Shown here: positions 2,508 to 48,402 of the stretch, piece by piece
How the letters are laid out: each line of letters starts with the position of its first letter
Numbering within the stretch: position 1 is the stretch's first letter
Origin: Candidatus Pacebacteria bacterium GW2011_GWA1_46_10
GTDB taxonomy: Bacteria > Patescibacteriota > Microgenomatia > UBA1400 > PJMF01
Direction of reading: 5' to 3'
Assembly (NCBI GenBank): GCA_001002135.1
Contig: LCLP01000001.1
Coordinates: 78,108 to 142,107, forward strand
Length of the DNA: 64,000 nucleotides
The notes under the pieces: model-generated
The model's input: the letters and a program-made list of their open reading frames with translations, nothing else
The model's database searches: none
Told to the model about the DNA's origin: nothing
Position numbers and translations under genes: made by a program

Positions 2508-4922
2508 TTACGGGGTGGCGGGGGGTTGGGCGCCTGTGTCGGTTTCAATCACGGTTTCTTCTTCGTTGGTGTAGTGTTTTTCGTAGATAATCTTGCCTTG
2601 TTCGTCCACCGCGCGATTACAGTCGCCGCAATACAGTGGCGTGACCGGGTCTTGATACAGTGTGTGGGTTTCTAAAATGAGTCCCTCGACTACCTCGCCG
2701 TACGCTGGCGGCAAGCCGGTTTCTGGTTTAATCCAGACCTCTTTTTGGACAATGCTGGAACGGGAAGGTTTACCTTCAGTCCAGTAGTACTCTTCATTGG
2801 TTTCGGTGCACTCGGTGTCTGTGAGGTCTTTTGGCAGACCGCTGGGGCAGACCGTTCCCTCGATCACGTCGGCCGGCTTTTCTTGCCAAACTGGTTCTTG
2901 GTCTCTCAAGACATAGCTCATGATATCGTTGAAGATTGGGGCGGCACCGGTGACGCCGGAGGCAATGTAGCTCATTTGTGAGTTGTCATTGTTGCCCACC
3001 CAAGTGACGGTCAAAAATTCCGGCGTGTAACCGATAGTCCAGTTATCTTTAAGATCGTTAGTAGTACCGGTTTTGACACTGACTATTTGATCAGGAATAA
3101 CCAGTTCGGAGTTACTCCCGAAAGCCAAGGTACGAGCATTGTTGTCCTGTAAAATGTGGCTCACTAGATACGCCGGAGCAGCTGCTATCACTCGCTCGGC
3201 CTCGCCGCGCCAGTGAGCATAAGGATCTTCTTGGAGTTCCTTAAGATCAGCTTTCCGCTGCTCAAGATCTATTTCCTCCAACACTTCCCCCTTAAAGTTT
3301 TCTACTTTGATGATTGGGGTAAGTGGGATTTTGACGCCTTGACTGGCTAGTGCACCAAAAGCCTGAGCCATATCGATCATTCGTACCTCACCCCCGCCTA
3401 GCGCCAGTGAAGGGCCGTAGTTGGCTGGGTCGTCCCAGCCAGTGATGCCCATTTTTTTAGCTTGGTTAATGAGCGTAGGGATGCTGATGGTTTCGATTAC
3501 TTTCACCGCCGGGATGTTGAGTGAGTTCCCGAGGGCTTGTCTCACTGTGACCGGTCCCTTGAAATCACCGGTGTAGTTTTTGGGGCAGTACTCCGGTTGA
3601 TTTGGCAGTTTAATACAGGTAGGAATATCGAGTAAAAGTGAGCCGGGATTGAGAGTTTTTTCTTGGAAAGCGGTGGCATAGACAATGGGCTTGATCGATG
3701 AACCAGGTTGACGTCTGGAGAGTGTCACGTTGACTTGGCCATCATGTTCACTGTCGAAGTAGTTCCTTGAGCCAATCATGGCCAAGATTTCACCGGTGTT
3801 TGGTTTGGTGATCAAGGCTGCTCCATTCCCCACTCGCAGGCCGGCTAAGTCGTCAATCTCGGCTGAGAGTGAAGCCTGGGCGGCTTCTTGTAAGTCAATA
3901 TCCAGACTGGTGGTCACTCGTAGGCCACCTTTTTCCACTGTTTCCTCGCCGTACTTTTCGTATAAAAGATCGCGGACGTAAAAAACAAAATGCGGTGCTC
4001 TGATATCAGTGGTTTTCAGGGCAAATTGCAAGGGAGTACCTCTGGCTTCTTCTGCTTGTAGGGGGGTAATAAAGCCCTCTTCGGCCATTCGCCGCAGCAC
4101 CTCTGCCTGGCGGTTTTTGGCACGGTTCGGATCAGAGCCGAATGGTGAGTAGAGACTGGGGGCTTGTGGCAGGCCAGTCAGCATCGCTGCTTCAGGCAAG
4201 GTTAAATCTTTAGCGCTCTTATCAAAGTAGTAATTGGCGGCTGACTCAATACCTACGGCGGTTCCCCCATAGGAAATGTAATTGAGGTACATTTCCAAGA
4301 TTTCTTCTTTACTGTAGATAATTTCGGTCATGATGGCCAAGACGGCTTCTTTCGTTTTCCGTTGGAAAGATTTTTCGTTCGTCAGCAGCGCGTTTTTCAC
4401 CAGTTGTTGAGTGATCGTTGAGCCACCTTGGAGTTGCTCGCCGGTAAAGTTATTTTTAATGGCCCGCAGAATCCCTTCCAGATCAAAGCCGAAGTGACCA
4501 TAGAAATTTTTATCCTCGATAGCGATGGTTGCCTGCAAGACGTGGGGCGGCAAGGTTTCTAGTTGAATAGGGATTCGGTTTTCGTCGACAAACACTTCAT
4601 AAAGCAAGACGCCATTGCGGTCAAAGATCTGAGTGCTGACGGCGAAGTTTTCTTGCGAGGTGAGCCGGCGGGGGGAGGGTAAATCCTTGATGAGGTAAGC
4701 CACGATCGCCAGTCCTGAAAAAAAGAGGGCCAAGAGGCTGTAGCGCCAGAGCGGGTTGGTAACGGGGAGAGTGAGGGCTTTGAAAAACCGACGTAACTTA
4801 CTCAAGTTGTTCGGTGCTTGATGAAGGCCCTTTTCCAGAGTATGAGGGAGACCAAGCAAAGCTTTTTTTAAAACCGTCAGTTTCTCAGTGCGGCTTTTTT
4901 GAGCAGGATAAAAAGTATTCAT
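2508..4922 (-). CDS. ponA: Class A penicillin-binding protein (bifunctional transglycosylase/transpeptidase)
   Basis: GT51 motifs IAIEDKNFYGHFGFD and GGSTITQQLVKN. Transpeptidase motifs SSIKP (SxxK), SLN (SxN) and KTGTT (KTG). N-terminal TM helix. Confidence 0.9.
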   Translation of the reverse strand: MNTFYPAQKSRTEKLTVLKKALLGLPHTLEKGLHQAPNNLSKLRRFFKALTLPVTNPLWRYSLLALFFSGLAIVAYLIKDLPSPRRLTSQENFAVSTQIFDRNGVLLYEVFVDENRIPIQLETLPPHVLQATIAIEDKNFYGHFGFDLEGILRAIKNNFTGEQLQGGSTITQQLVKNALLTNEKSFQRKTKEAVLAIMTEIIYSKEEILEMYLNYISYGGTAVGIESAANYYFDKSAKDLTLPEAAMLTGLPQAPSLYSPFGSDPNRAKNRQAEVLRRMAEEGFITPLQAEEARGTPLQFALKTTDIRAPHFVFYVRDLLYEKYGEETVEKGGLRVTTSLDIDLQEAAQASLSAEIDDLAGLRVGNGAALITKPNTGEILAMIGSRNYFDSEHDGQVNVTLSRRQPGSSIKPIVYATAFQEKTLNPGSLLLDIPTCIKLPNQPEYCPKNYTGDFKGPVTVRQALGNSLNIPAVKVIETISIPTLINQAKKMGITGWDDPANYGPSLALGGGEVRMIDMAQAFGALASQGVKIPLTPIIKVENFKGEVLEEIDLEQRKADLKELQEDPYAHWRGEAERVIAAAPAYLVSHILQDNNARTLAFGSNSELVIPDQIVSVKTGTTNDLKDNWTIGYTPEFLTVTWVGNNDNSQMSYIASGVTGAAPIFNDIMSYVLRDQEPVWQEKPADVIEGTVCPSGLPKDLTDTECTETNEEYYWTEGKPSRSSIVQKEVWIKPETGLPPAYGEVVEGLILETHTLYQDPVTPLYCGDCNRAVDEQGKIIYEKHYTNEEETVIETDTGAQPPATP

Positions 4923-7009: not shown

Positions 7010-7459
7010 ATGATATGTCCATTTTGTCAAAGTACCAACCTTTCTGTCGTCGACTCTCGAGAGGCTGAGGATGGTGAGGCCACTCGACGGCGCCGAAAGT
7101 GTAACAACTGTCAACGCCGGTTCACCACTTATGAGCGGGCAGAAGGCATTGACTTAAAAGTGATTAAAAAAGGTGGTGAAACTGAACCGTTTAATCGGGA
7201 AAAAATTAAACGTGGTTTAGTCAAGGCAACCTGGAAACGGCCAGTCTCCATGCAGGAGATAGAGCAACTGATCAGTGAAGTTGAGGCCAGACTGCGAGTT
7301 AAGGGACTACGGGAGGTGAAAAGCTGGGAGATTGGCAATTTGGTCATTAACAGACTAAAAAAGTTAGACAAGTTGGCGTACATGCTCTTTGCCACGGTCT
7401 ATCGAGACTTTGATAGTCTGGAAGACTTTAAAGAAGAGATTAGTAAATTAGAAAAATGA
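7010..7459 (+). CDS. nrdR: Transcriptional repressor NrdR
   Basis: N-terminal zinc ribbon CPFC...CNNC followed by an ATP-cone domain. The pattern MICPFCQSTNLSVVDSRE is typical of NrdR. Confidence 0.9.
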   Translation: MICPFCQSTNLSVVDSREAEDGEATRRRRKCNNCQRRFTTYERAEGIDLKVIKKGGETEPFNREKIKRGLVKATWKRPVSMQEIEQLISEVEARLRVKGLREVKSWEIGNLVINRLKKLDKLAYMLFATVYRDFDSLEDFKEEISKLEK

Positions 7460-7536
7460 GAATTTAAAGTTAGTTATTAAAAGTGAAATAGTGGATAGAT
7501 TCTGCGAACTACTTATTATTCATTGGAAAAACCTAA

Positions 7537-9717
7537 ATGCCACCCCGCTCTCCCGACTCTCTCCCCAAAAAAATAATGCGTTTTAGTGAACGCCGGTTAG
7601 CCAAAGGTTTGGGCGAGGCGGTAGCCAAGCGAACGATTTTGCGGACTGATGAAAAGGGGAGGTTAGAGTCTTGGGCTGACGTCGCTCATCGAGTAGCCTT
7701 GGGGAATTCTTCGCTCGTGCCCAAGTTTGGCAAGGCTCACCAACAGGCGGAGTACGAAATACTCAAAAAACATATTGCCAATGCCTCACTCTTAATGAGT
7801 GGTCGCCACCTTCAACATGGTGATGAGACCCAATCGGACAGAAATATGGAGGTTTTTACCAACTGTAGTACTGCTTCCAGCTCTTTCTTGTTGTTTTATC
7901 TCTTGCTGAACGGTTCTGGTGTTGGGCGTGCTTACGACGACGACTTAATGGTGGTCGATTGGAACTACATGCCGATTATTCGTTGTGTGCTGGATGAACA
8001 ACACCCAGACTTTATTTGGGGAGAGGACGAGAGTGTGCGGGATGCCAAGCACAAATACCGCAAAGTCTATTGGTTTGAGATACCTGACACCCGTGAGGGG
8101 TGGGCGCAGGCGGTCGAGAAGATCGAAACGATGGCTTTTGAGAAGAAATATAAGGATGATCTCTTGGTGATTGATTTCTCCAAAGTGCGGCCTAAGGGGG
8201 CGAAGATCCGCGGGATGCAGAACCGGCCGGCCTCTGGCCCTCGTCCCTTGATGCGGGCGATCCAGAAAGTAGCTACGGTCAAGGGTTCCGGGATGTCCCC
8301 TTGGCGCCAGGCGATTTTTGTTGATCACTATTTATCTGAATGCGTGTTGGTGGGTGGTGCGCGTCGAGCAGCTAGGATCGCCACTAAAACCTGGACTGAT
8401 CCAGAAGTACTCGACTTCATCTCGATTAAACGTGGTGGTTTTCTGTGGTCGGCTAATAACAGTGTGGCAGTAGATGAGAAATTCTGGAAGCAAAAAACCC
8501 GCCACGCCAAGAAAGTCTTGGAAGCGATTTTACAGGCTTCGTATCACGACAAGACCGGTGAACCAGGTTTTGTCAATCAACACAAGTTGGTTCAGAACGA
8601 CACCGGATTCAACGGTTACACTGATGGTAAATACGCTGAGAGTGAGAAATACAAACCGGCTCCCAAGACCCGCAAGATGTTGGCGGCGGTCGCCAAACGA
8701 GCCAACGCCAAATACTACACCCAAATTCCTAATCCTTGTGGTGAGATTACGCTTAATATGTTGGGTGGATACTGTGTCATTGCTGATGTGGTGCCATACC
8801 ACGCGCCAGATGTAGCTGCGGCTGAGGAGGCTTTCCGGGCGGCTACTCGAGCTCTGATGCGGGTTAATACGATGGATTCGCTCTATAAGCGGGAAGTAGC
8901 GCGTACCAACCGGATCGGCGTTGGCATGACGGGTATTCACGAGTACGCCTGGAACGCTTTTGGCTACAGCTTCCGGGATTTGGTTAATGAGGAAAAGTCG
9001 AAAGACTTTTGGCTGACACTATCCCGTTTTAAACGGGCGGTGGTGGAGGAGGCTGAAAAATACGCCAAGAAACTGGGTGTCGGCGTACCTCACACCAATA
9101 CGACGATTAAACCAGCTGGTACCACTTCCAAACTATTTTCCTTGTCAGAAGGAGCGCATCTCCCGGCGATGCGTGAGTACATGCGTTGGGTGCAGTTCCG
9201 CTCCGACGATCCGTTGGTGGCCAAGTATGGCAAGATGGGGTACCCGGTCAAAGAGCTCAAGAGTTACGCGGGGACGACGGTCGTTGGTTTTCCCACTCAG
9301 CCGGAGATTTGTCGTTTGGGCATGAATAACCACCTGGTGACGGCCTCGGAGGCAACACCAGAAGAGCAGTACAAGTGGCTGATGCTGATTGAGAAATATT
9401 GGATCCGTGGGGTGGATGAAAACGGTAAACCGTTGGAGCCGGATACGGGCAACCAGGTGTCCTATACTTTGAAATATGATCCGGAAAAAGTCAGTTTCCA
9501 AGAGTTTAAGAAAATGGTCAAAAAATACCAACCGCTGATCCGCACCTGCTCGGTCATGCCACGCATTGAGACCACGGCCTATGAATATCAACCGGAAGAA
9601 GCGATGAATGCCAATGATTTCATGAAAGTGATCCACGAGATCAGCGATGAAGAAGGGGTGCTGGAAGATATTGATTTAGAACAATTGAAGTGTGACACCG
9701 GTGCGTGTCCGATTTAG
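7537..9717 (+). CDS. nrdJ: Class II, adenosylcobalamin-dependent ribonucleotide reductase
   Basis: It has the catalytic Cys-loop PNPCGEI and a C-terminal Cys pair CDTGAC. It is large (726 aa) and sits immediately downstream of nrdR. Confidence 0.85.
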   Translation: MPPRSPDSLPKKIMRFSERRLAKGLGEAVAKRTILRTDEKGRLESWADVAHRVALGNSSLVPKFGKAHQQAEYEILKKHIANASLLMSGRHLQHGDETQSDRNMEVFTNCSTASSSFLLFYLLLNGSGVGRAYDDDLMVVDWNYMPIIRCVLDEQHPDFIWGEDESVRDAKHKYRKVYWFEIPDTREGWAQAVEKIETMAFEKKYKDDLLVIDFSKVRPKGAKIRGMQNRPASGPRPLMRAIQKVATVKGSGMSPWRQAIFVDHYLSECVLVGGARRAARIATKTWTDPEVLDFISIKRGGFLWSANNSVAVDEKFWKQKTRHAKKVLEAILQASYHDKTGEPGFVNQHKLVQNDTGFNGYTDGKYAESEKYKPAPKTRKMLAAVAKRANAKYYTQIPNPCGEITLNMLGGYCVIADVVPYHAPDVAAAEEAFRAATRALMRVNTMDSLYKREVARTNRIGVGMTGIHEYAWNAFGYSFRDLVNEEKSKDFWLTLSRFKRAVVEEAEKYAKKLGVGVPHTNTTIKPAGTTSKLFSLSEGAHLPAMREYMRWVQFRSDDPLVAKYGKMGYPVKELKSYAGTTVVGFPTQPEICRLGMNNHLVTASEATPEEQYKWLMLIEKYWIRGVDENGKPLEPDTGNQVSYTLKYDPEKVSFQEFKKMVKKYQPLIRTCSVMPRIETTAYEYQPEEAMNANDFMKVIHEISDEEGVLEDIDLEQLKCDTGACPI

Positions 9718-16915: not shown

Positions 16916-17968
16916 TTAATCGTCGATTCGCCAACCTGGTTTGCGATCGAGGTTGGCAGAAGGCTTGAGTGACTTGAAGCTGCTGACTACACCGATCATG
17001 GCAGCGTTGTCGCCGCACAGTTTTTTGGTATACGGTACTCGCAAGGGTAATTGATGCTCTTTGGCGACTTGACGTAGTTTGCGACGCAGAGTCATGTTGG
17101 CGGCCACACCACCGCCAAGCCAGAGTTCTTTGACAGATACTTGATTAAGCAATTTAGCTAACTTGTACGTGATGTGATTAAAAACTCCCTCCTGCAGTGA
17201 GGCGCAAAAATCAGCAATGGTTTGCCGATCGAGTTGATTTTTTGTTTCCAGCTCATTAATTAAGCGTCTGGAGTGGGTTTTTAAGCCCGAGAAACTCATA
17301 TTAAACGTTTTTATCTCAGTCATTGGTAAAGGAAATTTGAAGCGAGTGGTGTCGCCCTTCTTGGCCAGCTGTTCCACCACCGGTCCGGCGGGGTAACCAA
17401 GATTTAAAAGACGGCCGACTTTGTCCAGACACTCACCGGCGGCATCATCGACGGTGGCGCCGAGGCGTTGATACCGACCGATTTGTTTCACGAGGACAAA
17501 TTCGGTATGGCCGCCAGAGACAATGACACTCAAGGCAGGCAAACTGGGTGAAATTACTTGGTTTGTCTTCGTGTTTAGTTTTGTTTTTAACCTTGGTTGG
17601 GCGAGGACCGAAAGCACATGACCTTCCAGATGATTTATCGGTATAGCAATTTTGCTATATTTTTTCGCCAGTTGGGCGGCATGATTGAGCCCCACTTCCA
17701 GGGCTGGTGCTAAGCCCGGTCCTTGAGTGACAGCAATGGCATTGATGTCTGACCAGTCTTTGCTAGCTCGGGTGAGGGCGGCTTTGATGGTTGGCTCGAT
17801 GTTCTCTTTGTGCGCCTGTTTGGCGACCGTCGGGAAAACGCCACCATAGTGTTGATGGAGTTGGGCTTGAGAAGCAATGATGTTACTGAGAATAGTTTGG
17901 CCACGAGTGACCGCGACGGCGGTTTCATCACAAGAAGTATCGATGGCAAGGATGATTGGCGCTGTCAT
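16916..17968 (-). CDS. tsaD: tRNA N6-adenosine threonylcarbamoyltransferase TsaD (Kae1/Gcp family)
   Basis: N-terminal ILAIDTSCDETAVAV and HxxGH metal-binding motifs. Length and ordering of motifs are typical of TsaD. Confidence 0.9.
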   Translation of the reverse strand: MTAPIILAIDTSCDETAVAVTRGQTILSNIIASQAQLHQHYGGVFPTVAKQAHKENIEPTIKAALTRASKDWSDINAIAVTQGPGLAPALEVGLNHAAQLAKKYSKIAIPINHLEGHVLSVLAQPRLKTKLNTKTNQVISPSLPALSVIVSGGHTEFVLVKQIGRYQRLGATVDDAAGECLDKVGRLLNLGYPAGPVVEQLAKKGDTTRFKFPLPMTEIKTFNMSFSGLKTHSRRLINELETKNQLDRQTIADFCASLQEGVFNHITYKLAKLLNQVSVKELWLGGGVAANMTLRRKLRQVAKEHQLPLRVPYTKKLCGDNAAMIGVVSSFKSLKPSANLDRKPGWRIDD

Positions 17969-19038
17969 GATTGAGGAGTTTTCACCGAGATTTTGCGCGT
18001 TTGCTCACCGGTTTCGTCAAAATGGATCAGCAGTTGTGGGCGTGATTTTTTGGGCCAAAATGGCGCGCCTTGCTGCCACCACTCGACTACCACGACAGTA
18101 TGAGGTTTGGTTAAATCATCAATATGCAAGCGCTCTAATTCAGTTTTTGAATCAATTTTCCAGAGATCTAGGTGAAAAAGTTTGCCGGTGATGCCATGCC
18201 GGTTGTAATCATATTCGGTTAAATAGGTGTAAGTAGGAGAAACAATTGGGTCCGAGATTTGCAAAAACTTGGCAATACCCTTGGTAAAAATGGTTTTGCC
18301 GGTACCAAGTTCACCGCTTAAGGCGATAACCAAGCCAGTCTTTTTGACGTGTGACCAGTACTTGAGCAGTAATTTTCCGGCTAATTCTTGAGTTTCTTGG
18401 TCGGTAGTAGTTTCGAAAACTGATTCGCCGTTCTGATGCCAAGTTCCGCGCACAGTCAGGGGAGTAGAGAGAGTAGTGTCGATGACGGTGGATGGTTCAT
18501 TTTTGGGCAACTGACCGTCGTCGATGATTAAATCAACCAAGTTTTTTTGTTTGGCTGAAAGTCGATTGAGTACATCATCAACCGAGTAAGGACGCTTTTC
18601 ACCAGACGCGTTGGCGGAGGTGGCGGTAATAGGACGACCAAGCGCCTCAGTGAGTTTGAGTACTAACGGATAGGCCGGGATTCTGACGCCGAGTGTCTTA
18701 AACTCGGATTCCACTCCAGCCGCTACCTTGCCTAAACCTTTGGAAATAATAGTGTATGGACCAGGTAAAAAGCGTTTATAGAGTTTCTTGGCTTGGTCAT
18801 TAAGCTCAACGTACTGTTCGGCCATCGGCCTGTCGGCTACGGCGATGGAGAGCGGTTTGCCCTCGCGGCGTGACTTATATTTCAGCAGTTTTTTGACCGC
18901 TTCTTGGTTGGTGGCATCAACTCCCACCCCATAGACCGTTTCGGTGGGATAGATCACCAAGTCACCAGTAGCCAAGCTCTGTGTTGCTTGTTTGACAATT
19001 TTCTCCAACGGCCAGTCTTTTGTCTTGAGAACTTTCAT
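17965..19038 (-). CDS. tsaC-tsaE: Fusion of TsaC/Sua5/YrdC (threonylcarbamoyl-AMP synthase) and TsaE (YjeE P-loop ATPase)
   Basis: The N-terminal half is a YrdC domain (VIYPTETVYGVGVDATN). The C-terminal half carries TsaE motifs SGELGTGKTIFTKG, SPTYTYLTEY and HLDLWKI. It overlaps tsaD by 4 nt. Confidence 0.8.
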   Translation of the reverse strand: MKVLKTKDWPLEKIVKQATQSLATGDLVIYPTETVYGVGVDATNQEAVKKLLKYKSRREGKPLSIAVADRPMAEQYVELNDQAKKLYKRFLPGPYTIISKGLGKVAAGVESEFKTLGVRIPAYPLVLKLTEALGRPITATSANASGEKRPYSVDDVLNRLSAKQKNLVDLIIDDGQLPKNEPSTVIDTTLSTPLTVRGTWHQNGESVFETTTDQETQELAGKLLLKYWSHVKKTGLVIALSGELGTGKTIFTKGIAKFLQISDPIVSPTYTYLTEYDYNRHGITGKLFHLDLWKIDSKTELERLHIDDLTKPHTVVVVEWWQQGAPFWPKKSRPQLLIHFDETGEQTRKISVKTPQS

Positions 19039-20094: not shown

Positions 20095-20142
20095 TTGACA
20101 GATTTTTGGGTCTTAGTTATCATCACGATTAAAGTAGTGCTA
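20095..20142 (+). promoter_or_regulatory. Sigma70-like promoter TTGACA-17-TATCAT for groES-groEL, with an overlapping degenerate CIRCE-like element
   Basis: -35 TTGACA at 20095-20100. A 17-nt spacer. -10 TATCAT at 20118-20123. Downstream is TTATCATCA-N9-TAGTGCTAG. The 11-mer AGTGCTAGCAA is the reverse complement of TTGCTAGCACT found upstream of hrcA. Confidence 0.5.
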
Positions 20143-20196
20143 GCAAACACTGACTTCGTTTGCTATTTACAAGGCAACAGTAGATAAAGGAATATT

Positions 20197-20592
20197 ATGA
20201 AAAATCTGACAGTTTCTCAATTACAACCAATGGCTGGGTATGTGTTAATTGAACCCGCTCAAGCCGAAACAAAAACTGCTTCCGGTATCATCCTCCCAGA
20301 ATCTGACAGTGAAAAACCCCAATACGGGACTGTGTTGGCTGTCGGTGAAGGAGAGTGTGATGACTGTGAATGTGGTTGTGGTGGTTGTGGTTGTGGTTGG
20401 GAAGAGGAGCATGGTAAAGGTGAGAAAACTCACTCTCACTCCCATGATCAGTGTGATGGTGAGCCGCCGGTGAAGGTTGGTGACCAGGTGATTTACAAAA
20501 AATGGGGCGGGAATGAAGTACTGATTGACGACGTGGAATATCAGTTCCTTAAGTTTGAGGATATTTTGGCAATTATCGGTAATAAAAAATAA
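20197..20592 (+). CDS. groES: Co-chaperonin GroES carrying a roughly 36-aa Cys/His-rich insertion in the roof-hairpin position
   Basis: GroES core: mobile loop ...TASGIILPES..., VLAVGEG, VKVGDQVIYKKWGGNEVLIDDVEYQFLKFEDILAII. The insert ECDDCECGCGGCGCGWEEEHGKGEKTHSHSHDQCDGE at 20353-20466 is encoded by TGTGGT-type hexamer repeats. Confidence 0.85.
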   Translation: MKNLTVSQLQPMAGYVLIEPAQAETKTASGIILPESDSEKPQYGTVLAVGEGECDDCECGCGGCGCGWEEEHGKGEKTHSHSHDQCDGEPPVKVGDQVIYKKWGGNEVLIDDVEYQFLKFEDILAIIGNKK

Positions 20593-20684: not shown

Positions 20685-22304
20685 ATGGCAGCAAAACAAC
20701 TTCTTTTCGGCGATGAGGCTCGACAAAAAATGCTGGCTGGGATTAATCAGCTGGCACAGGCAGTGGTCACTACCCTCGGTCCCAAGGGCCGTAATGTGGC
20801 ACTGGACAAATCGTGGGGTGCGCCGGCCGTCGTGCATGATGGCGTGACCGTCGCCAAGGAAATTGAATTGGAGGATAAGTTTGAGAACATGGGCGCCCAG
20901 CTAGTGCAAGAAGCGGCCTCTAAAACGAATGACGTGGCCGGTGATGGCACCACCACGGCGACACTGCTTGCTTGGAAATTAACCGACCGCGGCATGCAGC
21001 AAGTCAGTAACGGCGCTAACCCGATGATCATGAAACGGGGGATTGACCGTGCCGTCAAAGCGGTGGTCGACCAAATCAAGGCTGTGGCAAAGCCGGTTGA
21101 GGAAAGCGACTGGGAAAAAGTGGCCACCATTTCGGCCCAGAGTGAGGAAATCGGTAAAAAGATCGCTGAAGCGTTGCAGTTGGTTGGGAAAGATGGCGTG
21201 GTTGAAGTGGAAGAAGGCAAGACGATGGAAATCGAGATTCAACACAAAGAAGGAATGGAGTTTGATAAAGGCTATGCCTCGCCGTATTTTGTCACTGATT
21301 CGGAAAATATGGAGGCGGTGATTGAAGACCCAGCCATCTTGGTCACTGATCAAAAAATCTCTAATATTAAAGATATTTTGCCAATGCTTGAACAAGTAGT
21401 GAACGCCGGCAAGGGCTTGGTCATGATCGCTGATGACATTGAGGGTGAAGCGTTGACGACGCTAGTGGTGAACAAATTGCGTGGTTCTTTCAAAGTGCTG
21501 CCGGTCAAAGCCCCTGGCTTTGGTGATCGCCGCAAGGAAATGCTGCAAGATATCGCTGTTTTGACCGGGGCTGCTTATGTCAGCTCTGAAACCGGCAAGC
21601 AGTTTAAAGATGTGACGATGGAAGATCTAGGTGCGGCGGATAGTGTCAGAAGCACCAAAGATGCCACCCGGATTGTCGGCGGGAAGGGGAGTAAAAATGA
21701 CATCAATGCTCGGGTGGCTCAGATCGAAGCCCAGATTAAGGCCTCGACCTCCGAGTTTGATATTGAAAAACTCCAGGAGCGTAGAGCTCGGTTGACGGGT
21801 GGAGTGGCCGTGATTCAAGTTGGGGCCAATACCGAGCTGGAGATGAAGAATCTTCAGGAGCGGGTAAAGGATGCCAAAGAAGCGACGAAAGCCGCCATTG
21901 AAAGCGGGATTATTCCCGGCGGCGGTGTCACTTTACTGCAGGCTGAAAAGGCGATCGCCGCGCTGAAGTTGACCGGTAAAGATGAAAAAGCTGGGGCAGA
22001 TTTGGTGCGTTCCATCTTGGAGGAGCCGCTTCGGATGCTGGCTATCAACTCAGGTGAAGACGCCGATAAAGTGTTGAAAAAAGTCAGAGAGAAAAACGGC
22101 AAAACCTGGGGTTTTAATGCTTTGACTAACAATTTCGAGGACTTGGTGAAAGCTGGTGTTATTGAACCAGCCAAAGTGGCGATTGCCGCTATGGAAAACG
22201 CCGCTTCTGTGGCCTCGATGATTTTAACCACCGAGTGTTTGGTGACTGAGATCCCGAAAAAGGAAGAACCTGCTCCGGCGGCCGGTGGGATGCCGATGAT
22301 GTAA
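20685..22304 (+). CDS. groL: Chaperonin GroEL
   Basis: Canonical GroEL sequence (AAKQLLFGDEAR..., GDGTTTATLLA) and a C-terminal GGM-like tail AAGGMPMM. Confidence 0.95.
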   Translation: MAAKQLLFGDEARQKMLAGINQLAQAVVTTLGPKGRNVALDKSWGAPAVVHDGVTVAKEIELEDKFENMGAQLVQEAASKTNDVAGDGTTTATLLAWKLTDRGMQQVSNGANPMIMKRGIDRAVKAVVDQIKAVAKPVEESDWEKVATISAQSEEIGKKIAEALQLVGKDGVVEVEEGKTMEIEIQHKEGMEFDKGYASPYFVTDSENMEAVIEDPAILVTDQKISNIKDILPMLEQVVNAGKGLVMIADDIEGEALTTLVVNKLRGSFKVLPVKAPGFGDRRKEMLQDIAVLTGAAYVSSETGKQFKDVTMEDLGAADSVRSTKDATRIVGGKGSKNDINARVAQIEAQIKASTSEFDIEKLQERRARLTGGVAVIQVGANTELEMKNLQERVKDAKEATKAAIESGIIPGGGVTLLQAEKAIAALKLTGKDEKAGADLVRSILEEPLRMLAINSGEDADKVLKKVREKNGKTWGFNALTNNFEDLVKAGVIEPAKVAIAAMENAASVASMILTTECLVTEIPKKEEPAPAAGGMPMM

Positions 22305-22326
22305 CTTTAGTAAAGCTTAACAATGA

Positions 22327-22352
22327 AAAGCCCTGGAAACAGGGCTTTTTTA
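22327..22352. terminator. Rho-independent terminator, bidirectional between the convergent groEL and 22365-22931 genes
   Basis: AAGCCCTG-gaaa-CAGGGCTT followed by TTTTT. Confidence 0.7.
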
Positions 22353-32049: not shown

Positions 32050-32083
32050 TGACTTGCTAGCACTCACCAAGTATCATTGCTAA
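32050..32083 (+). promoter_or_regulatory. Sigma70-like promoter TTGACT-17-TATCAT overlapping a CIRCE-like inverted repeat (HrcA operator) upstream of hrcA-grpE-dnaK
   Basis: cTAGCACTC-N9-cAtTGCTAA at 32057-32083 matches CIRCE TTAGCACTC-N9-GAGTGCTAA at 8/9 and 7/9 positions. -35 TTGACT at 32050-32055. -10 TATCAT at 32073-32078. Confidence 0.55.
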
Positions 32084-32089
32084 CAGACT

Positions 32090-32812
32090 ATGATAGATCT
32101 TGTTGCCAGACAGATTCAAATTCTTCGTGCCATCATCGAAGAGTTTATTTCGACCGCTAAACCGGTCGGTTCCGACACCATTGATAAGAAATTTAATATC
32201 GGTGTTTCCCCGGCGACGATCCGCAACGAGATGGTCTACCTGACAAAACAGGGTTATTTACAGAAATCTCATATCAGCGCCGGCCGCATCCCAACACCTC
32301 TCGCCCTTCGGCTTTATGTCAATGAGCTGATGAAAGAGAAAGAGCTGTCGGTAGCAGACGAAGTCAGCGCCAAGGAGAAAATCTGGGAGCATAAAAGTGA
32401 GTTGGACGATCTTTTGCAGGAGGCCACTAAGGCTTTGGCTGAAAAATCACGGGCGATCGGGGTAGCCATGGCCAAAGACCACCACATTTTTTCCGCCGGT
32501 TATGCCAATTTACTCACCATGCCGGAGTTTTTCGATATCCGAGTGACCAGAAACGTCTTAAGTTTAATTGAGGAAGAATCACTCATGCAGCAGGTTTTTG
32601 ATTTAGGCAAAAGTGAGAACCCGGTCCATCTAGTCTATGGCAAGGAATTGGGTAACAAAGACTTGGAACCAGTGAGCATTATTTACACCGAGATCAATAC
32701 TACCGGTCAGGTCTGCAAACTCGGCGTTTTAGGTTCACACCGTTTTGATTATGCCTATATCATTCCAGTCATGAAATATTTTAAGGGGTTAATTGAAGAA
32801 ATTGCCGGTTAG
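32090..32812 (+). CDS. hrcA: Heat-inducible transcription repressor HrcA
   Basis: The N-terminal wHTH region (ILRAIIEEFISTAKPVGSDTI...ATIRNEMVYLTKQGYL) and the length are typical of HrcA. Confidence 0.9.
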   Translation: MIDLVARQIQILRAIIEEFISTAKPVGSDTIDKKFNIGVSPATIRNEMVYLTKQGYLQKSHISAGRIPTPLALRLYVNELMKEKELSVADEVSAKEKIWEHKSELDDLLQEATKALAEKSRAIGVAMAKDHHIFSAGYANLLTMPEFFDIRVTRNVLSLIEEESLMQQVFDLGKSENPVHLVYGKELGNKDLEPVSIIYTEINTTGQVCKLGVLGSHRFDYAYIIPVMKYFKGLIEEIAG

Positions 32813-32838
32813 GGAATTGTTTTTCAAAAAATTTTTGA

Positions 32839-33294
32839 GTGATGTCAAAAAAATCGCCAAAAACCACTCTTTCCATTGAATCGCTCCAACAGCAGATAGC
32901 AGAGTTGGAACAAAAATTCACCCAGACACAAGAAAAAGAGAAGCGAGCGTTGGCTGATTATCAGAATTTGGTGCGGCGCAACCAAGAAGAGCGCCTAAAA
33001 CTGATTCAAATGGCCAACCTTGATTTGATGTTAGCTCTTTTGCAGCCGCTTGGACACCTGGAGCGAGCGGTGGAACAGACGAAGGACAAAGGAGTGGCCA
33101 TGGTGCTTGAGCAGTTCAAGCGTACGTTAAACAGCTTTGGTCTTGAGGAAATTGAGGTCCAGGACCAGCCGTTTGATGTCGAAACCATGGAAGCCGCGCC
33201 GGGGAGCCAGGGGAAAATTGTCAAGCAAGTGATCCATAAGGGGTATCGATTGAACGGACGGGTGATCCAGCACGCCAAAGTGATTCTGGGGTAA
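32839..33294 (+). CDS. grpE: Nucleotide exchange factor GrpE
   Basis: Coiled-coil N-terminus and a C-terminal GrpE core (...VKQVIHKGYRLNGRVIQHAKV). Confidence 0.9.
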   Translation: MMSKKSPKTTLSIESLQQQIAELEQKFTQTQEKEKRALADYQNLVRRNQEERLKLIQMANLDLMLALLQPLGHLERAVEQTKDKGVAMVLEQFKRTLNSFGLEEIEVQDQPFDVETMEAAPGSQGKIVKQVIHKGYRLNGRVIQHAKVILG

Positions 33295-33303
33295 AGAGCT
33301 ATT

Positions 33304-33330
33304 CTAGCAGTCACTTGACTTGTCTGCTAA
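33304..33330 (+). promoter_or_regulatory. Second CIRCE-like inverted repeat immediately upstream of dnaK
   Basis: CTAGCAGTC-acttgactt-GTCTGCTAA. This is an imperfect inverted repeat with a 9-nt spacer containing TTGACT. Each half matches the CIRCE half-site at 7 of 9 positions. Confidence 0.5.
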
Positions 33331-33427
33331 AATAAAAATACGTAGTTTATAGTTAATAGTTCATAGACAGTCGGCTTATTGCTATAAACTTTTAGCTATC
33401 AACTATAAACTGAAGCAAGGAGGCAAT

Positions 33428-35344
33428 ATGGCATCAGGTAAAATTATCGGTATTGACTTAGGGACCACCAACTCGGCGGTGGCCGTGATGGAAGGTGGCT
33501 CGCCAAAAGTCATTCCGACTACCGAAGGGCGTAACCTAATTCCCTCGATTGTGGCTTTCAAAGGTGATGAAGTCTTGGTCGGTGACCCAGCCAAACGTCA
33601 GATGGTGATGAATTCCCAGTCCACCGTTTACTCGGTGAAGCGTTTCATGGGCCGCAAGTTTAAAGATGAAGCGGTTCAGAAAGCAGTCAAGCACATTGCT
33701 TATGAGATTGCCGAGGGCAAGGATGGCATGGCTATCGTCAAGATCGGCGGCAAAATCTATACGCCGCAGGAAATCTCGGCCAAAGTGCTGGCCAAAGCCA
33801 AGGCCGATGCTGAGAGCTACCTTGGTGAAAAAGTAGAGCGAGCGGTGATTACCGTGCCGGCCTATTTTGACGATTCTCAGCGTCAAGCGACTAAACAAGC
33901 GGGGAAAATTGCCGGTTTGACCGTGGAGCGGATTGTCAACGAACCAACTGCCTCAGCGCTGGCGTATGGTCTGGATAAAAAAGGCACCAGCACCATCGCG
34001 GTCTATGACTTGGGTGGTGGGACGTTTGATATTTCTATTCTTGAGATTGGTGATGGCGTTTTTGAAGTGAAGTCAACCAACGGAGACACATTCTTGGGAG
34101 GCGATGACTTTGACAACCGAGTGATCGACTACGTGTTGAGTGAATTCAAAAAAGAACACGGCAAGGACTTAGCCAAAGACCCGCAAGCCATGCAGCGGAT
34201 CAAAGACAGTGCCGAAAAAGCCAAGATTGAGCTCTCGAGCGCTCAACAAACCGAGATTAATCAGCCGTTTATTGCCCAAGGTGATGATGGTCAACCCCTC
34301 CACCTGACGATGACCTTGACCCGAGCCAAGTTGGAAGAGTTGGTTGATGACTACATCAAGGGTTCGTTCGAACCGGTCCGAAAGGCTATGAAAGATGCGA
34401 AACTTGAACCAAAAGATATTCAAGAAGTAGTTTTGGTCGGTGGCCAGACCCGCATGCCCAAGATTCAGGCAGAGGTCAAAAAATTCTTCGGCCGCGAGCC
34501 CCACAAAGGGGTAAATCCGGATGAAGTGGTGGCGGTGGGTGCCGCGATTCAGGCCGGGGTGATTGGCGGCGATGTCTCTGATGTGGTTTTACTTGATGTG
34601 ACGCCGCTGACACTCGGTCTTGAGACGTTGGGTGGCGTACGCACACCCTTGATCGAGCGCAACACGACCATTCCGACCAGCAAGTCGCAGATTTTCTCCA
34701 CCGCGGCTGATAACCAAACCCAAGTGGAGATCAATGTCTTGCAAGGCGAGCGTGAAATGGCCGCCGACAACCGGTCGCTTGGCCGATTTATCTTAGATGG
34801 CATTCCGCCAGCGATGCGCGGCACACCACAGATTGAGGTGACCTTTGACATCGACTCCAATGGTATTCTCAATGTCTCGGCCAAAGACAAAACGACCAAC
34901 AAAGAGCAAAAAATTACCATCCAAAACAGCACCAATCTTTCCGACGAGGAGATCGAGAAGATGAAGGCTGACGCGGAAAAACACGCGGAAGATGATAAAC
35001 AAAAGAAGGAATTGGTTGAGGCGAAAAATCATGCTCATGGGGTCGTTTTTGAGCTGGAAAAACAACTCAAAGACTATGGTGACAAACTTGACGAAAAAGA
35101 TAAAAAAGCGATCGAAGAGAACGTCAAAAAACTGAAAGAATTGGCGGAAAAGTCCGATGTTACCAAAGAGGAGTTAGAAAAAGCGGCTGAGGAAACGTTG
35201 ACCTCCGCTCAGAAGCTGGGTGAGGCAATGCAAAAGGCCAATCAAGCTAAAGCAGAGCCAACCAAGGATGAGGCTAAAGACGACAAAAAATCATCGGGCA
35301 GCGACAAAGATAAAGCCGAAGAGGGCGAGGTCGTCAACGAGTAA
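33428..35344 (+). CDS. dnaK: Molecular chaperone DnaK (Hsp70)
   Basis: Canonical Hsp70 motifs [29 protein letters not shown]-terminal EEVD-like tail. Confidence 0.95.
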
Positions 35345-38660: not shown

Positions 38661-39524
38661 ATGGTTACGCAACGCGATTACTACGAAATTTTAGGTGTCA
38701 AAAAAGACGCCTCGGAGAGCGAGATCAAGTTAGCCTATCGCAAGATGGCCTTGAAATATCACCCGGATAAGAACAAAGCCGCCGACGCTGAGCAGAAGTT
38801 TAAAGAAATCAACGAAGCCTACCAAGTGCTCTCTGATACCAAGAAACGCCAGGCGTATGACCAGTTTGGTCACGCGGCTTTTGATCCGGCTCGCGGTGGT
38901 TTCGGGGGTGCTGGCGGCCCATTTGGCGGTTTCCAGCAGGGGCCGTTTACCTGGACGTATACCACCACTCGGGGCGGCGGTCAGCAAGGCATGGATTTTG
39001 ATTTCGGTGATCCATTTGAGATTTTCGAACAATTCTTTGGTGGTGGTTTTGGCCGCGCTCGCCGGCAACGCTACGGCATCGCGATCGATTTCATGGAGGC
39101 CGTACATGGCGTGACGAAGGAAGTATCCATTGACGGTAAGAAGCACAAAGTGACCATTCCACCTGGCGCTAACGACGGCACCCGTCTTCGGTTTGCCGAG
39201 TTTGACATCACGGTGGAAGTCAGGTCGCACCCCAGATTTAAACGTGATGGGTATGACGTTTTTCTGACCCAAGAAATTTCTTTGAGCGCAGCGGTACTTG
39301 GTGGCACGATCGAGGTACCCACCCTGAAAGAAGAAAAACTTAAGCTCAAAATTCGCCCCGGCACCCAATCTCACAGTCTGATCCGCTTGCGTGAAGAGGG
39401 TGTGCCACATTTGCGTGGCCGCGGGCGAGGAGATCTGTATGTGCGGATTGTGATCAAGGTGCCGGAAAAGTTGACTCGGGAGCAGAAGAGATTAGTTGAA
39501 GAATTAAAAAAGGTTGATTTGTAG
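38661..39524 (+). CDS. dnaJ: DnaJ-family co-chaperone of the type II / CbpA-like kind, with no zinc-finger domain
   Basis: J domain with HPD (YHPDKN). G/F-rich linker. Two C-terminal beta-sandwich domains. The CxxCxGxG repeats are absent. Confidence 0.8.
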
Positions 39525-47743: not shown

Positions 47744-48379
47744 TTGAGCAGTATTTTTCAGAAAGGATCTATGCACTACGAACTACCCCAATTACCGTAT
47801 GACTACAATGCGCTGGAACCACACCTTGATGCCAGGACGATGGAGATTCACCATACCAAGCACCATCAGGGATATGTCGATAAACTCAATGACGCAATGA
47901 AGCAAGTGCCGGAGCTTGATGTGGAAGTGACTGAACTAATGGGTCACTTGGACGAGATTAAAGATGAAGCGGTTCGCAAAGCTGTCCGCAATAACGGCGG
48001 CGGTCATGTCAACCACTCGTTGTTTTGGCAGGTGATGTCGCCGGAGAAGAGTGAACAGGGTGAAGCACTCCAAAAAGCGCTGGCTGAAGCCTTTGGCAGT
48101 CTGGATAATTTTAAGACTCAATTTGCCGCGGCTGGGGCGGGTCAGTTTGGCTCTGGTTGGGCGTGGTTAGTGGTTGACGCTGGTAAGTTGTCGATTATGA
48201 GCACGCCGAACCAAGACAACCCGTGGATGGAGGGGAAAACCCCGATTCTGGGACTTGATGTGTGGGAACATGCCTATTACCTCAATTACCAAAATCGTCG
48301 GCCGGACTATATCGCGGCGTGGTGGAACGTGGTGAATTGGATGAAAGTCAGTGAGTTGTATGATCAAGCGATAAAATAG
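47744..48379 (+). CDS. sodA: Fe/Mn superoxide dismutase
   Basis: [21 protein letters not shown] and the C-terminal DVWEHAYYL metal-ligand motif. The likely start is the ATG at 47771. Confidence 0.9.
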
Positions 48380-48402
48380 GTTGAAGGCACCAGTAAATTG
48401 GA

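What the first reader, a model, noticed from the sequence alone, without database searches (positions are those of the whole stretch)
20353..20466. GroES with a 36-residue Cys/His-rich metal-binding insertion replacing the roof hairpin, encoded by a hexanucleotide repeat
Between the conserved VLAVGEG and VKVGD blocks, GroES carries ECDDCECGCGGCGCGWEEEHGKGEKTHSHSHDQCDGE, with 8 Cys and 5 His. In a heptameric GroES dome this would place seven metal-binding loops around the roof orifice. The DNA is a near-perfect (TGTGGT)n tract, tgtggttgtggtggttgtggttgtggttgg, which is the kind of sequence that expands or contracts by slippage. The His/Cys-rich GroES domain I know of (Helicobacter HspA) is a C-terminal tail for nickel handling, not a roof-loop insertion, so this loop-embedded version is unusual.
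Basis: partly seen in the sequence, partly recalled or inferred. Interest (0 to 1): 0.65.

Follow-up and report, generated by a model that had tools for sequence, protein, structure and literature searches.

The report
GroES with a cysteine-rich metal-binding roof
The co-chaperonin GroES of this tiny groundwater bacterium has had the tip of its dome-roof loop replaced by a cysteine- and histidine-rich stretch that resembles a metal-binding metallothionein; hundreds of related bacteria carry versions of it, evolution has preserved it, and I found no paper that describes it.

Summary
The feature is real. groES (20197-20592, +) lies directly upstream of groEL. Its roof segment is 41 residues instead of the usual 13-14. 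Pfam, PDB alignment and an AlphaFold model all place the extra residues at the tip of the roof (dome) hairpin.

It is not an assembly artefact: the identical protein is indexed in 65 assembly blocks. It is not chance either, because the window's proteins average 0.5% Cys.

It is a lineage trait. Of the 120 closest GroES, 83 have Cys-rich roofs of 17-69 residues, and two genome loci reach 97 and 101 residues with 22-23 Cys. A second lineage, Roizmanbacteria, has a compact roof with a six-cysteine motif in 119 of 120 hits.

The cysteines are under purifying selection. Among the close relatives all seven are kept while TGT and TGC alternate and synonymous sites are saturated. Length changes occur in repeat units, but no variant of the window's own sequence was found.

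My best reading is a metallothionein-like metal-thiolate crown on a working co-chaperonin, functionally like Helicobacter HspA but placed elsewhere. Metal binding is inferred, not shown. I found no publication on it. I rate it a new variant of a known kind.

The parts
20095..20123 (+). sigma-70-like promoter of groES-groEL (TTGACA-17-TATCAT, 11 of 12)
   Evidence: consensus scan; a pattern match only, function not shown
20141..20165 (+). inverted repeat TAGCAAAC-N9-GTTTGCTA in the 5' leader; a degenerate CIRCE-like operator (12 of 18 to TTAGCACTC-N9-GAGTGCTAA by my count)
   Evidence: A closer CIRCE match lies upstream of hrcA at 32057-32083. Its role as an operator is inferred
20197..20592 (+). 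groES (co-chaperonin, 131 aa), identical to the '10 kDa chaperonin' of Candidatus Pacebacteria bacterium GW2011_GWA1_46_10
   Evidence: ORF; Pfam Cpn10 1.1e-25; 100% identical database entry; GroES fold by AlphaFold2 plus Foldseek
20263..20316 (+). mobile-loop region (about residues 23-40, AETKTASGIILPESDSEK) with the hydrophobic I31-I32-L33 that corresponds to the GroEL-binding tripeptide
   Evidence: alignment to M. tuberculosis and M. leprae Cpn10; nearly invariant in 95 relatives; boundaries approximate; GroEL contact inferred from E. coli GroES (own knowledge)
20347..20469 (+). roof segment E51-P91 (41 aa; 7 Cys, 4 His, 12 Asp/Glu, net charge -10), standing where canonical relatives have a 13-14 aa beta-hairpin
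   Evidence: AlphaFold2 pLDDT below 50 for residues 56-85
20356..20394 (+). N-terminal cysteine cluster C54-x2-C57-x-C59-x-C61-x2-C64-x-C66
   Evidence: all six Cys conserved in the three closest relatives with TGT/TGC alternation
20371..20400 (+). (TGTGGT)2-GGT-(TGTGGT)2-TGG tract that encodes CGCGGCGCGW
   Evidence: codon choice in the roof is homogenised (7 of 7 Cys are TGT, 8 of 9 Gly are GGT) compared with the rest of the window (49:47 TGT:TGC; GGT is 37% of Gly)
20398..20430 (+). acidic/basic linker W68-T78 (WEEEHGKGEKT), including His72
   Evidence: long roofs in relatives have an E/K/S/D/H-rich central linker
20431..20445 (+). His-Ser repeat H79-S-H81-S-H83
   Evidence: the number of SH units differs among members of the nearest >=90% cluster ((SH)5 against (SH)3)
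20452..20454 (+). Cys86, the only cysteine left of the C-terminal cluster; relatives have CxC or CxCxCxC here, and the window has Gly88 where they have Cys
20685..22304 (+). groEL (539 aa) with an ordinary GGM-type C-terminal tail
   Evidence: groEL follows groES in all 30 related genome loci checked
22325..22350 (+). terminator-like hairpin plus T-run after groEL
   Evidence: pattern match only

Best explanation
This is the cell's ordinary, heat-shock-regulated GroES. The tip of its roof hairpin has been replaced by a metallothionein-like module: an N-terminal Cys cluster, a charged linker, an HxHxH stretch and a remnant C-terminal Cys.

In the GroES heptamer the seven roof hairpins converge on the seven-fold axis at the top of the dome. 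The ring would therefore display 49 thiolates and 28 imidazoles as a crown around or above the roof orifice, away from the GroEL-binding mobile loops.

I propose that this crown binds soft or borderline metal ions (Zn, Cu(I), Cd, Ni, Fe(II)) in metal-thiolate/imidazole clusters. An abundant, stress-induced protein would then double as the cell's metal buffer or sink in a genome whose proteins are otherwise very poor in cysteine. Co-chaperonin activity would be kept.

Shown here: position, composition, conservation, selection, operon context and spread across relatives.
Inferred: heptamer geometry (from solved GroES structures), metal binding, which metal, and the physiological role.
For: (1) It is a bona fide GroES. 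Pfam Cpn10 scores 89.9 bits. The core has a confident GroES fold. The mobile loop is conserved. groEL follows immediately here and in 30 of 30 related loci. No second Cpn10 is present in the 64 kb window.

(2) The insert is at the roof tip. That element is dispensable for co-chaperonin function, since T4 gp31 lacks the roof loops (PMC6318259).

(3) The composition is that of metallothioneins. Across 86 non-identical roofs: 24% Cys, about 1% aromatics, CxC 250, CC 167, CxxxC 124, CxxC 78. The window roof is 17% Cys against a 0.5% background.

(4) HxHxH runs (HSHSH, HDHDH, HEHEH, HNHNH) join the cysteines in the window's subclade. Histidine is a metal ligand, not a redox residue.

(5) Purifying selection acts on the insert. 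All 7 Cys are kept in 4 orthologues while third codon positions alternate and dS is saturated. Insert dN is 0.14-0.43 against core dN of 0.07-0.11.

(6) The trait persists and recurs. It is found in 83 of 120 nearest homologues, in roofs up to 101 aa with 23 Cys, in a second lineage with a semi-conserved six-Cys motif in 119 of 120 hits, and in at least two separate clades on a GroEL tree.

(7) The Cys count has no strong parity rule: 54 even to 32 odd, and 63 to 47 in Roizmanbacteria. The protein is cytoplasmic. Both points argue against a fixed disulfide knot.

(8) AlphaFold2 gives no confident apo structure for the roof, as expected for a module that folds around metal.

(9) There is a precedent. 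Helicobacter HspA, a GroES with a Cys/His-rich extension, binds two Ni per monomer and serves nickel storage and detoxification (PMC5116745).
Against: - No metal-binding measurement exists, and nothing here identifies the metal.
- The inserts match no metallothionein family in Pfam. The only hit is E=0.074 for one 22-mer, below the cutoff.
- The roofs are far more acidic (27% Asp+Glu) than classical metallothioneins.
- Cys positions are not conserved between subclades, and single Cys->Tyr/Arg changes occur within >=90% clusters. Any site must therefore be redundant rather than precise.
- No metal transporter or metal regulator was seen next to groES.
- The window's version has lost part of the C-terminal cluster (Gly88 where relatives have Cys).
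- The heptamer could not be modelled, so whether the crown points outward, plugs the orifice or faces the cavity is unknown.
Confidence: 0.5

Rival explanations
1. Redox module. The roof thiols act as a protein-borne thiol buffer or sacrificial antioxidant. Alternatively they act as a redox switch that forms disulfides within or between subunits under oxidative stress, protecting or regulating the chaperonin and its clients.
For: Cysteine is very rare elsewhere in the window (0.53%), so an abundant GroES would hold a large share of protein thiols. Vicinal CC pairs are frequent (167 in 86 roofs), and in HspA such pairs form disulfides (PMC5116745). Metallothioneins themselves are antioxidants (PMC11273490 abstract). 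A dedicated redox co-chaperone, CnoX, works with GroEL/ES in other bacteria (PMC13451151 abstract). The window encodes a superoxide dismutase.
Against: His-rich runs in the window's subclade are not explained by redox chemistry. Odd Cys counts are common. The protein is cytoplasmic and comes from mostly anoxic groundwater organisms. The strong Asp/Glu enrichment next to Cys suits cation binding better. This reading does not exclude metal binding.
Confidence: 0.2
2. Structural staple. The roof cysteines, with a structural metal or disulfides shared between neighbouring subunits, lock the seven subunits together or close the roof orifice. The role would be to stabilise the heptamer or seal the cage, not to handle metal.
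For: Seven roofs meet at the axis (solved GroES structures, own knowledge; GroES fold confirmed). The compact Roizmanbacteria motif CC-x2-3-CC-x4-5-CxC keeps a near-canonical length, which looks more like a defined site than a sponge. Canonical-length relatives already carry a Cys pair at the hairpin base, VLACG...KCP.
Against: A staple needs few, well-placed ligands. It does not explain growth to 60-101 residues and 16-23 Cys, or the free variation of length and spacing. Most bacteria need no such staple.
Confidence: 0.12
3. Neutral low-complexity expansion. A slippage-prone (TGY-GGY)n / (CAY-TCN)n tract grew in a loop that tolerates anything, and has no function.
For: The roof is dispensable in gp31. 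Repeat-unit indels occur between near-identical sequences. Roof length varies from 17 to 101 aa. The window's tract has homogenised codons. AlphaFold2 predicts no structure for it.
Against: Cysteines are kept across orthologues whose synonymous sites are saturated, with TGT/TGC alternation. Cys richness persists through clades whose GroEL proteins are only about 75% identical, and in a second lineage with column-wise Cys conservation of 60-84%. Relatives do not keep the DNA repeat, only the amino acids. Without selection a TGY codon would decay to Tyr, Arg, Ser, Gly, Phe or Trp.
Confidence: 0.07
4. Iron-sulfur cluster site. The roof cysteines ligate Fe-S clusters, making GroES a carrier or sensor linked to the SUF system.
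For: The roof has many Cys. SUF assembly genes lie in the same window (50435-55738).
Against: No roof shows a recognised Fe-S spacing that is conserved across the family. Positions drift freely, unlike known Fe-S ligands. The SUF genes are 30 kb away and not linked to groES in relatives.
Confidence: 0.05
5. Assembly or sequencing artefact in a repeat.
For: None beyond the presence of a short repeat.
Against: The identical protein is indexed in 65 assembly blocks from several studies. Six contigs read have identical DNA. Orthologues carry the same insert with different codons.
Confidence: 0.01

Closest known systems
Helicobacter pylori HspA (GroES with C-terminal domain B)
   Same: A working GroES that carries an extra Cys- and His-rich module. 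In HspA the module has 4 Cys and 8 His, binds two Ni per monomer and serves nickel storage and detoxification; seven modules project from the heptamer (PMC5116745). The window protein likewise adds 7 Cys and 4 His to an otherwise normal GroES. Relatives show CC pairs and HxHxH runs much like those of domain B.
   Different: HspA's module is a C-terminal tail at the rim of the ring. Here the C-terminus is ordinary (…ILAIIGNKK) and the module is inside the chain at the roof hairpin, so the seven copies converge on the axis. The roofs here are Cys-dominated (up to 23 Cys, often no His) and hypervariable in length, and they occur in free-living or episymbiotic groundwater Patescibacteria rather than a gastric pathogen. 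No homology between the two modules was shown.
Metallothioneins (as a compositional class)
   Same: High Cys content (17% here, median 25% in the family). CxC, CC and CxxC motifs dominate. Almost no aromatic or hydrophobic residues. No confident apo structure. Metallothioneins are defined as low-molecular-weight Cys-rich proteins with high affinity for d10 metals (PMC4101491 abstract).
   Different: It is not a free small protein but a loop of a 10-kDa chaperone subunit. There is no sequence match to any Pfam metallothionein family. It is much more acidic (27% Asp+Glu). Metal binding is untested.
Bacteriophage T4 gp31 co-chaperonin
   Same: It shows that the roof element of GroES can be altered radically without losing co-chaperonin function (PMC6318259). 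Foldseek also retrieves gp31 with the window model.
   Different: gp31 deletes the roof loops and widens the opening. Here the roof is enlarged and chemically specialised.
Mycobacterium tuberculosis Cpn10 'dome loop'
   Same: It is the best sequence and fold match among solved structures. The insert replaces exactly its dome-loop residues 53-61. From my own knowledge, not checked here, the acidic dome loop of this protein has been reported to bind divalent cations.
   Different: The Mtb loop is 9-13 residues, has no Cys, and would bind hard cations through carboxylates.
Structural-zinc lobe of medium-chain alcohol dehydrogenases (GroES-like fold)
   Same: From my own knowledge: a four-Cys zinc-binding lobe protrudes from a GroES-like beta-barrel. 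MDR enzymes appear as weak fold matches to the window model (ranks 36-47, E 0.25-1).
   Different: It belongs to a different protein family and is monomeric within a larger enzyme. I could not test whether the lobe emerges from the equivalent loop, because the tools give no residue-level structural alignment.

Membership tests
GroES / Cpn10 co-chaperonin (PF00166) | Sequence match to the Cpn10 profile above the curated threshold | tested here: met
   89.9 bits against a cutoff of 21.1, E 1.1e-25, matched in two stretches either side of the insert
GroES / Cpn10 co-chaperonin (PF00166) | GroES beta-barrel fold | tested here: met
   AlphaFold2 core pLDDT 81-91. The top 35 Foldseek PDB hits are all Cpn10, GroES or gp31, with target-normalised TM 0.64-0.78 for the Cpn10/GroES chains and lower for T4 gp31 (0.52) and the double-domain chloroplast Cpn20/Cpn23 chains
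GroES / Cpn10 co-chaperonin (PF00166) | Mobile loop with hydrophobic tripeptide for GroEL binding | tested here: met
   TASGIILPE aligns to the TASGLVIPD loop of M. tuberculosis Cpn10. G30, I31 and L33 are invariant or nearly so in 95 relatives. Actual binding was not tested
GroES / Cpn10 co-chaperonin (PF00166) | Encoded with groEL in one operon | tested here: met
   groEL starts 93 nt downstream, with one promoter-like site upstream and one terminator-like site after groEL. The same order holds in 30 of 30 related loci
GroES / Cpn10 co-chaperonin (PF00166) | Forms heptamers and assists GroEL-dependent folding | not testable with these tools
   Needs biochemistry or complementation
Metallothionein (class) | Cys content of about 15-30% with CxC, CC and CxxC motifs and few aromatics | tested here: met
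   Window roof is 17% Cys with 1 aromatic residue. Family median is 25% Cys; CxC 250, CC 167, CxxC 78; aromatics about 1%
Metallothionein (class) | Small independent protein | tested here: not met
   The module is an internal loop of GroES
Metallothionein (class) | Homology to a described metallothionein family | tested here: not met
   Six roofs scanned against Pfam at E<=10. No hit for the window's roof; one sub-threshold hit (Metallothio_2, E 0.074, 14.4 bits against cutoff 23) for a 22-mer
Metallothionein (class) | Binds several metal ions in thiolate clusters | not testable with these tools
   Needs ICP-MS, native MS or spectroscopy
HspA-type GroES (Helicobacter) | Cys/His-rich extension at the C-terminus (domain B) | tested here: not met
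   The protein ends ...FEDILAIIGNKK, like ordinary GroES. The module spans residues 51-91. HspA's definition is taken from PMC5116745
HspA-type GroES (Helicobacter) | Nickel binding and a role in nickel storage or detoxification | not testable with these tools
Only 64 kb of the genome was available and I did not survey it for nickel enzymes
Phase-variable simple-sequence contingency locus | Long uninterrupted repeat tract with length polymorphism within a population, switching expression | tested here: not met
   The tract has 4 hexamer units interrupted by GGT, with 3.2 perfect copies by TRF. Units are in frame, so no on/off switch. There is one sequence in its >=90% cluster, it is indexed in 65 assembly blocks, and six contigs read have identical DNA. 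Repeat-unit indels do occur between related strains of other members

The most novel reading that the evidence does not exclude
The seven roofs do not act as independent sponges. Together they build a polynuclear metal-thiolate (or Fe-S) cluster on the seven-fold axis that plugs or gates the dome orifice and faces the folding chamber. The chaperonin lid would then itself be a metal-delivery or redox-active device acting on the client protein enclosed in the cage (a 'metallochaperonin'). This would have been invented at least twice in ultra-small Patescibacteria that lack dedicated metallochaperones.
Probability: 0.1. Interest if true: 0.85.

Novelty: new variant of a known kind. Interest (0 to 1): 0.68.

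Why it matters
GroES is one of the most conserved and best-studied proteins. Apart from Helicobacter HspA it is regarded as a plain lid.

Here, whole lineages of Candidate Phyla Radiation bacteria have turned the roof of the lid into a cysteine-rich module. It ranges from a compact six-Cys motif to 101 residues with 23 Cys, which would be about 160 thiols per heptamer, and selection has kept it.

If it binds metal, three things follow:
- Genome-reduced bacteria with cysteine-poor proteomes solve metal (or thiol) buffering by grafting the function onto an abundant essential protein.
- There is a second, independent case beside HspA of a chaperonin coupled to metal homeostasis.
- The roof hairpin is shown to be a natural, highly permissive site for seven-fold symmetric peptide display, which is useful for protein engineering.

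It is cheap to test. The protein is 131 aa, its partner GroEL is adjacent, and natural variants with 0 to 23 roof cysteines exist for comparison.

Tried and rejected
- Pfam scan of six isolated roofs at E<=10: no family, so homology to metallothioneins or zinc-finger domains is not claimed.
- AlphaFold2 of the window GroES (95-sequence alignment) and of a compact Roizmanbacteria GroES (120 sequences): the cores are confident, but the roofs have pLDDT below 50 and about 55 with no secondary structure. No structural inference about the roof was possible. The tools return no coordinates and model no heptamer, so roof geometry and Cys-Cys distances could not be measured.
- Foldseek against the PDB: only ordinary co-chaperonins. 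Alcohol-dehydrogenase-type GroES-like folds scored too weakly to map the zinc lobe.
- Profile search of the 50%-identity representative library: the whole clade collapses to about four representatives. This was of little use for counting members, but it led to the Roizmanbacteria lineage through P0131.
- I considered that W68-EEE-H-G-K in the linker is the remnant of the canonical hairpin tip (V-W-E-S-G-V-K). The MAFFT alignment does not place them together, so I dropped the idea.
- A single origin of the insert looked likely on an 80-column GroES-core tree. A 520-column GroEL tree does not support it: bootstrap 0.005 for all insert-bearers and 0.235 without L003. The number of gains and losses is left open.
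- Search for a canonical CIRCE upstream of groES: none within 3 mismatches, only a degenerate inverted repeat.
- Search for a second groES: none in the window. The rest of the genome was not available.
- L031 (Frankiaceae) matched only the low-complexity insert and was set aside as chance.
- DNA for P0007 could not be fetched.
- Seven literature searches found no description of a Cys-rich GroES roof. The library lacks most subscription journals, so absence is not proof.
Full report
**1. What is in the sequence**

Window 20197-20592 (+) is a 131-codon ORF. A 539-codon ORF follows 93 nt downstream. Pfam identifies them as Cpn10/GroES (89.9 bits, E 1.1e-25, matched in two stretches) and Cpn60/GroEL.

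Between VLAVG (ending at G50) and VKVGD (starting at V92) the protein reads EGECDDCECGCGGCGCGWEEEHGKGEKTHSHSHDQCDGEPP. The counts are not:
- There are 7 Cys (54, 57, 59, 61, 64, 66, 86) and 4 His (72, 79, 81, 83).
- The segment that departs from a normal roof is 41 residues, with net charge -10.
- The TGTGGT tract is short: (TGTGGT)2-GGT-(TGTGGT)2-TGG at 20371-20400, with 3.2 perfect copies by Tandem Repeats Finder.

**2. Where the insert sits**

phmmer against PDB sequences aligns residues 9-56 to M. tuberculosis Cpn10 residues 5-52, and residues 92-128 to its residues 62-98. So 35 residues stand where that structure has the 9 residues at the tip of its dome (roof) hairpin.

An AlphaFold2 model built on 95 relatives gives a confident GroES barrel (pLDDT 81-91), with residues 56-85 below 50. 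Foldseek finds only co-chaperonins among its top 35 PDB matches.

The mobile loop with its hydrophobic I-I-L is intact and nearly invariant in relatives. The insert is therefore inside GroES, at the roof, and does not touch the part that binds GroEL.

**3. Not an artefact, not chance**

The identical protein is the '10 kDa chaperonin' of Candidatus Pacebacteria bacterium GW2011_GWA1_46_10. It is indexed in 65 assembly blocks. Six contigs read from different groundwater assemblies carry identical gene DNA.

Seventy ORFs of the window average 0.53% Cys, and none has more than 4 Cys in 40 residues. Seven Cys in 41 residues has probability 1.5e-9 at that background.

**4. It is a lineage trait with an extraordinary range**

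- Of the 120 best database homologues, 83 have a Cys-rich roof of 17-69 residues with 2-23 Cys. The other 37 have a canonical 13-14-residue roof such as GSVWESGVKEIKSP.
- Species-representative genomes add GroES of 185 and 189 aa, with roofs of 97 and 101 residues and 22-23 Cys (L027, L028).
- Across 86 non-identical roofs the composition is 24% Cys, 15% Asp, 12% Glu, 11% Ser, 11% Gly, 6% Lys and about 1% aromatics.
- CxC (250), CC (167), CxxxC (124) and CxxC (78) are the dominant spacings.
- Long roofs have an N-terminal Cys cluster, a central E/K/S/D/H-rich linker and a C-terminal Cys cluster.
- His-rich runs (HSHSH, HDHDH, HEHEH, HNHNH) are largely confined to the window's subclade; 11 of the 13 roofs with three or more His are P0001-P0013.
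- Every one of the 30 related genome loci checked has groEL directly downstream.

**5. A second lineage**

One divergent representative (P0131) led to GroES of Candidatus Roizmanbacteria. In 119 of the 120 best hits the roof is compact (16-24 residues) and has 2-7 Cys (3-7 in all but one). The semi-conserved motif is PGK-x-CC-G-xx-CC-x-DDDK-C-x-C-xx-MV. Six alignment columns are 60-84% Cys. The CCGGGCC element also occurs in Pacebacteria roofs.

**6. Evolution**

*Selection.* A codon alignment of the window gene with its three nearest orthologues (79%, 75% and 71% protein identity) shows the following:
- All seven cysteines are conserved, while TGT and TGC alternate at every one of those columns.
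- Synonymous sites are saturated (dS above 1).
- Insert dN is 0.14-0.43 against 0.07-0.11 for the core.

The insert evolves faster than the core but is clearly under purifying selection. What is kept is the amino acid, not the DNA repeat.

*Codon homogeneity.* The window's own tract is unusually uniform: 7 of 7 Cys are TGT and 8 of 9 Gly are GGT. The rest of the window has 49:47 TGT:TGC and 37% GGT (p about 0.009 and 0.002). This suggests recent repeat-unit turnover in this lineage.

*Indels.* Indels between orthologues are whole Cys-Gly or Ser-His units. Inside clusters at >=90% identity, 4 of 10 clusters show such unit indels: (SH)5 against (SH)3, one SC unit, an ACCDD unit, and SNDCKC. Occasional Cys->Tyr/Arg changes also occur. 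Slippage does shape length in the family, yet the window's species shows no variant.

*Number of origins.* On a 520-column GroEL tree the roof-bearing genomes fall into two clades plus one singleton. One clade has bootstrap 1.0. They are separated by genomes whose canonical-length roof carries a Cys pair at the hairpin base (VLACG...KCP). Monophyly of roof-bearers has bootstrap 0.005, or 0.235 without L003. There were several gains or losses, possibly starting from that Cys pair.

**7. Context**

- groES-groEL has a near-consensus promoter-like site (20095-20123), a degenerate CIRCE-like inverted repeat in the leader (20141-20165) and a terminator-like hairpin after groEL.
- A closer CIRCE match lies upstream of hrcA-grpE-dnaK at 32057-35344.
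- This looks like the cell's normal heat-shock chaperonin operon. No second Cpn10 is in the window.
- No metal transporter or metal regulator lies nearby. SUF Fe-S assembly genes and a superoxide dismutase are 27-35 kb away.

**8. How it most likely works**

Solved GroES structures show that the seven roof hairpins converge on the axis at the top of the dome (established knowledge). T4 gp31 lacks the roof loops and still works (PMC6318259). The roof is thus a permissive site where seven copies of an insert are brought close together, here 49 Cys and 28 His per ring.

Five observations point to binding of soft or borderline metal ions in redundant thiolate/imidazole clusters:
- the metallothionein-like composition;
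- the accompanying HxHxH runs;
- the lack of a parity rule for Cys number;
- the cytoplasmic location;
- the absence of any predicted apo structure.

An abundant stress protein would thereby serve as metal buffer or sink in a cysteine-poor proteome. Helicobacter HspA is the precedent: its Cys/His-rich domain binds two Ni per monomer and serves nickel storage and detoxification (PMC5116745).

I give this reading about 0.5. Metal binding, metal identity and physiological role are inferences.

The rivals are:
- a redox buffer or switch (0.2);
- a structural inter-subunit staple (0.12);
- a neutral low-complexity expansion (0.07), which the selection data contradict;
- an Fe-S site (0.05);
- an artefact (0.01), which is refuted.

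**9. Comparison with what is known**

- The protein is a member of the GroES family on every testable criterion.
- It works like HspA but is not an HspA-type protein. The module is internal at the roof rather than C-terminal, it is Cys-dominated and hypervariable, and it occurs in unrelated organisms.
- It resembles metallothioneins in composition. It is neither a free small protein nor homologous to any described metallothionein family.
- It is not a phase-variable contingency locus.

**10. Novelty and limits**

Database records call these proteins simply 'co-chaperone GroES'. Seven full-text searches found no description of a Cys-rich roof. The library omits most subscription journals, so this is not proof of absence.

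I rate it a new variant of a known kind. It is surprising to a chaperonin specialist because of its position on the seven-fold axis, its size range and its spread through two lineages.

Limits:
- There is no experimental evidence for metal binding.
- No heptamer model could be made.
- Only 64 kb of the genome was available.
- The trees are simple distance trees.
- The total number of roof-bearing GroES could not be counted, because only the best 120 hits are listed per search.

Noticed in passing
window 20141-20165 and 32057-32083: The groES leader carries the inverted repeat TAGCAAAC-N9-GTTTGCTA, a degenerate CIRCE. A closer CIRCE match (CTAGCACTC-N9-CATTGCTAA, 3 mismatches) sits just upstream of hrcA (32090-32812), followed by grpE and dnaK. 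The two share CTAGCA...TTGCTA, perhaps the local HrcA operator.
   Followed up: partly
window 38661-39524 (+): The DnaJ homologue has a J domain and the DnaJ C-terminal domain but contains no cysteine and gave no zinc-finger domain hit. It is a class II type DnaJ, in a genome whose GroES has gained a Cys-rich module.
   Followed up: partly
L010, L012, L013, L015-L019, L021-L025, L030 (groES at about 3001-3300 in most): GroES of related genomes with canonical-length roofs carry a correlated Cys pair at the base of the roof hairpin (VLACG ... KCPVK). On the GroEL tree these genomes sit between the two clades with expanded Cys roofs, so the pair may be the seed of the expansion.
   Followed up: partly
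P0131, P0269-P0387 (Candidatus Roizmanbacteria GroES): A second Patescibacteria lineage has a compact 16-24-residue roof with a semi-conserved six-Cys motif CC-x2-3-CC-x4-5-CxC in 119 of the 120 best hits.
   Followed up: yes
window 16916-19038 (-): tsaD (16916-17968) overlaps by 4 nt a 357-aa ORF that combines Sua5/TsaC and TsaE domains: a fused t6A-synthesis protein next to its partner. The same arrangement is seen in relatives L038 and L040.
   Followed up: no
window 47744-58765: Fe/Mn superoxide dismutase (47744-48379). SUF Fe-S assembly genes: ABC ATPase 50435-51187, SufB/D 51168-52598, an unusually short 163-aa SufBD-core ORF 52595-53086, SufS-like 54126-55367, NifU_N/SufU 55370-55738, and FeS_assembly_P 58457-58765.
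   Followed up: no
window 7010-9717 (+): NrdR repressor (zinc ribbon plus ATP cone) immediately upstream of a B12-dependent class II ribonucleotide reductase.
   Followed up: no
window 20245-20445 (-) and 20249-20473 (+): Alternative-frame ORFs through the repeat encode poly-Thr and poly-Val runs. They are by-products of the TGTGGT tract and show no sign of being genes.
   Followed up: partly
P0266 (144 aa, from the representative search): A GroES from another lineage has a roof insertion of about 40 residues that is not Cys-rich (…EETFEYIKFKIDLLFKCYENHVRDLEHYPHESG…). This suggests the roof hairpin is a general hotspot for insertions.
   Followed up: no
L031:3001-3132 (Frankiaceae contig): A genome-collection hit matched only the insert (EGECDDCE...). 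It is most likely a low-complexity chance match in an unrelated ORF.
   Followed up: no
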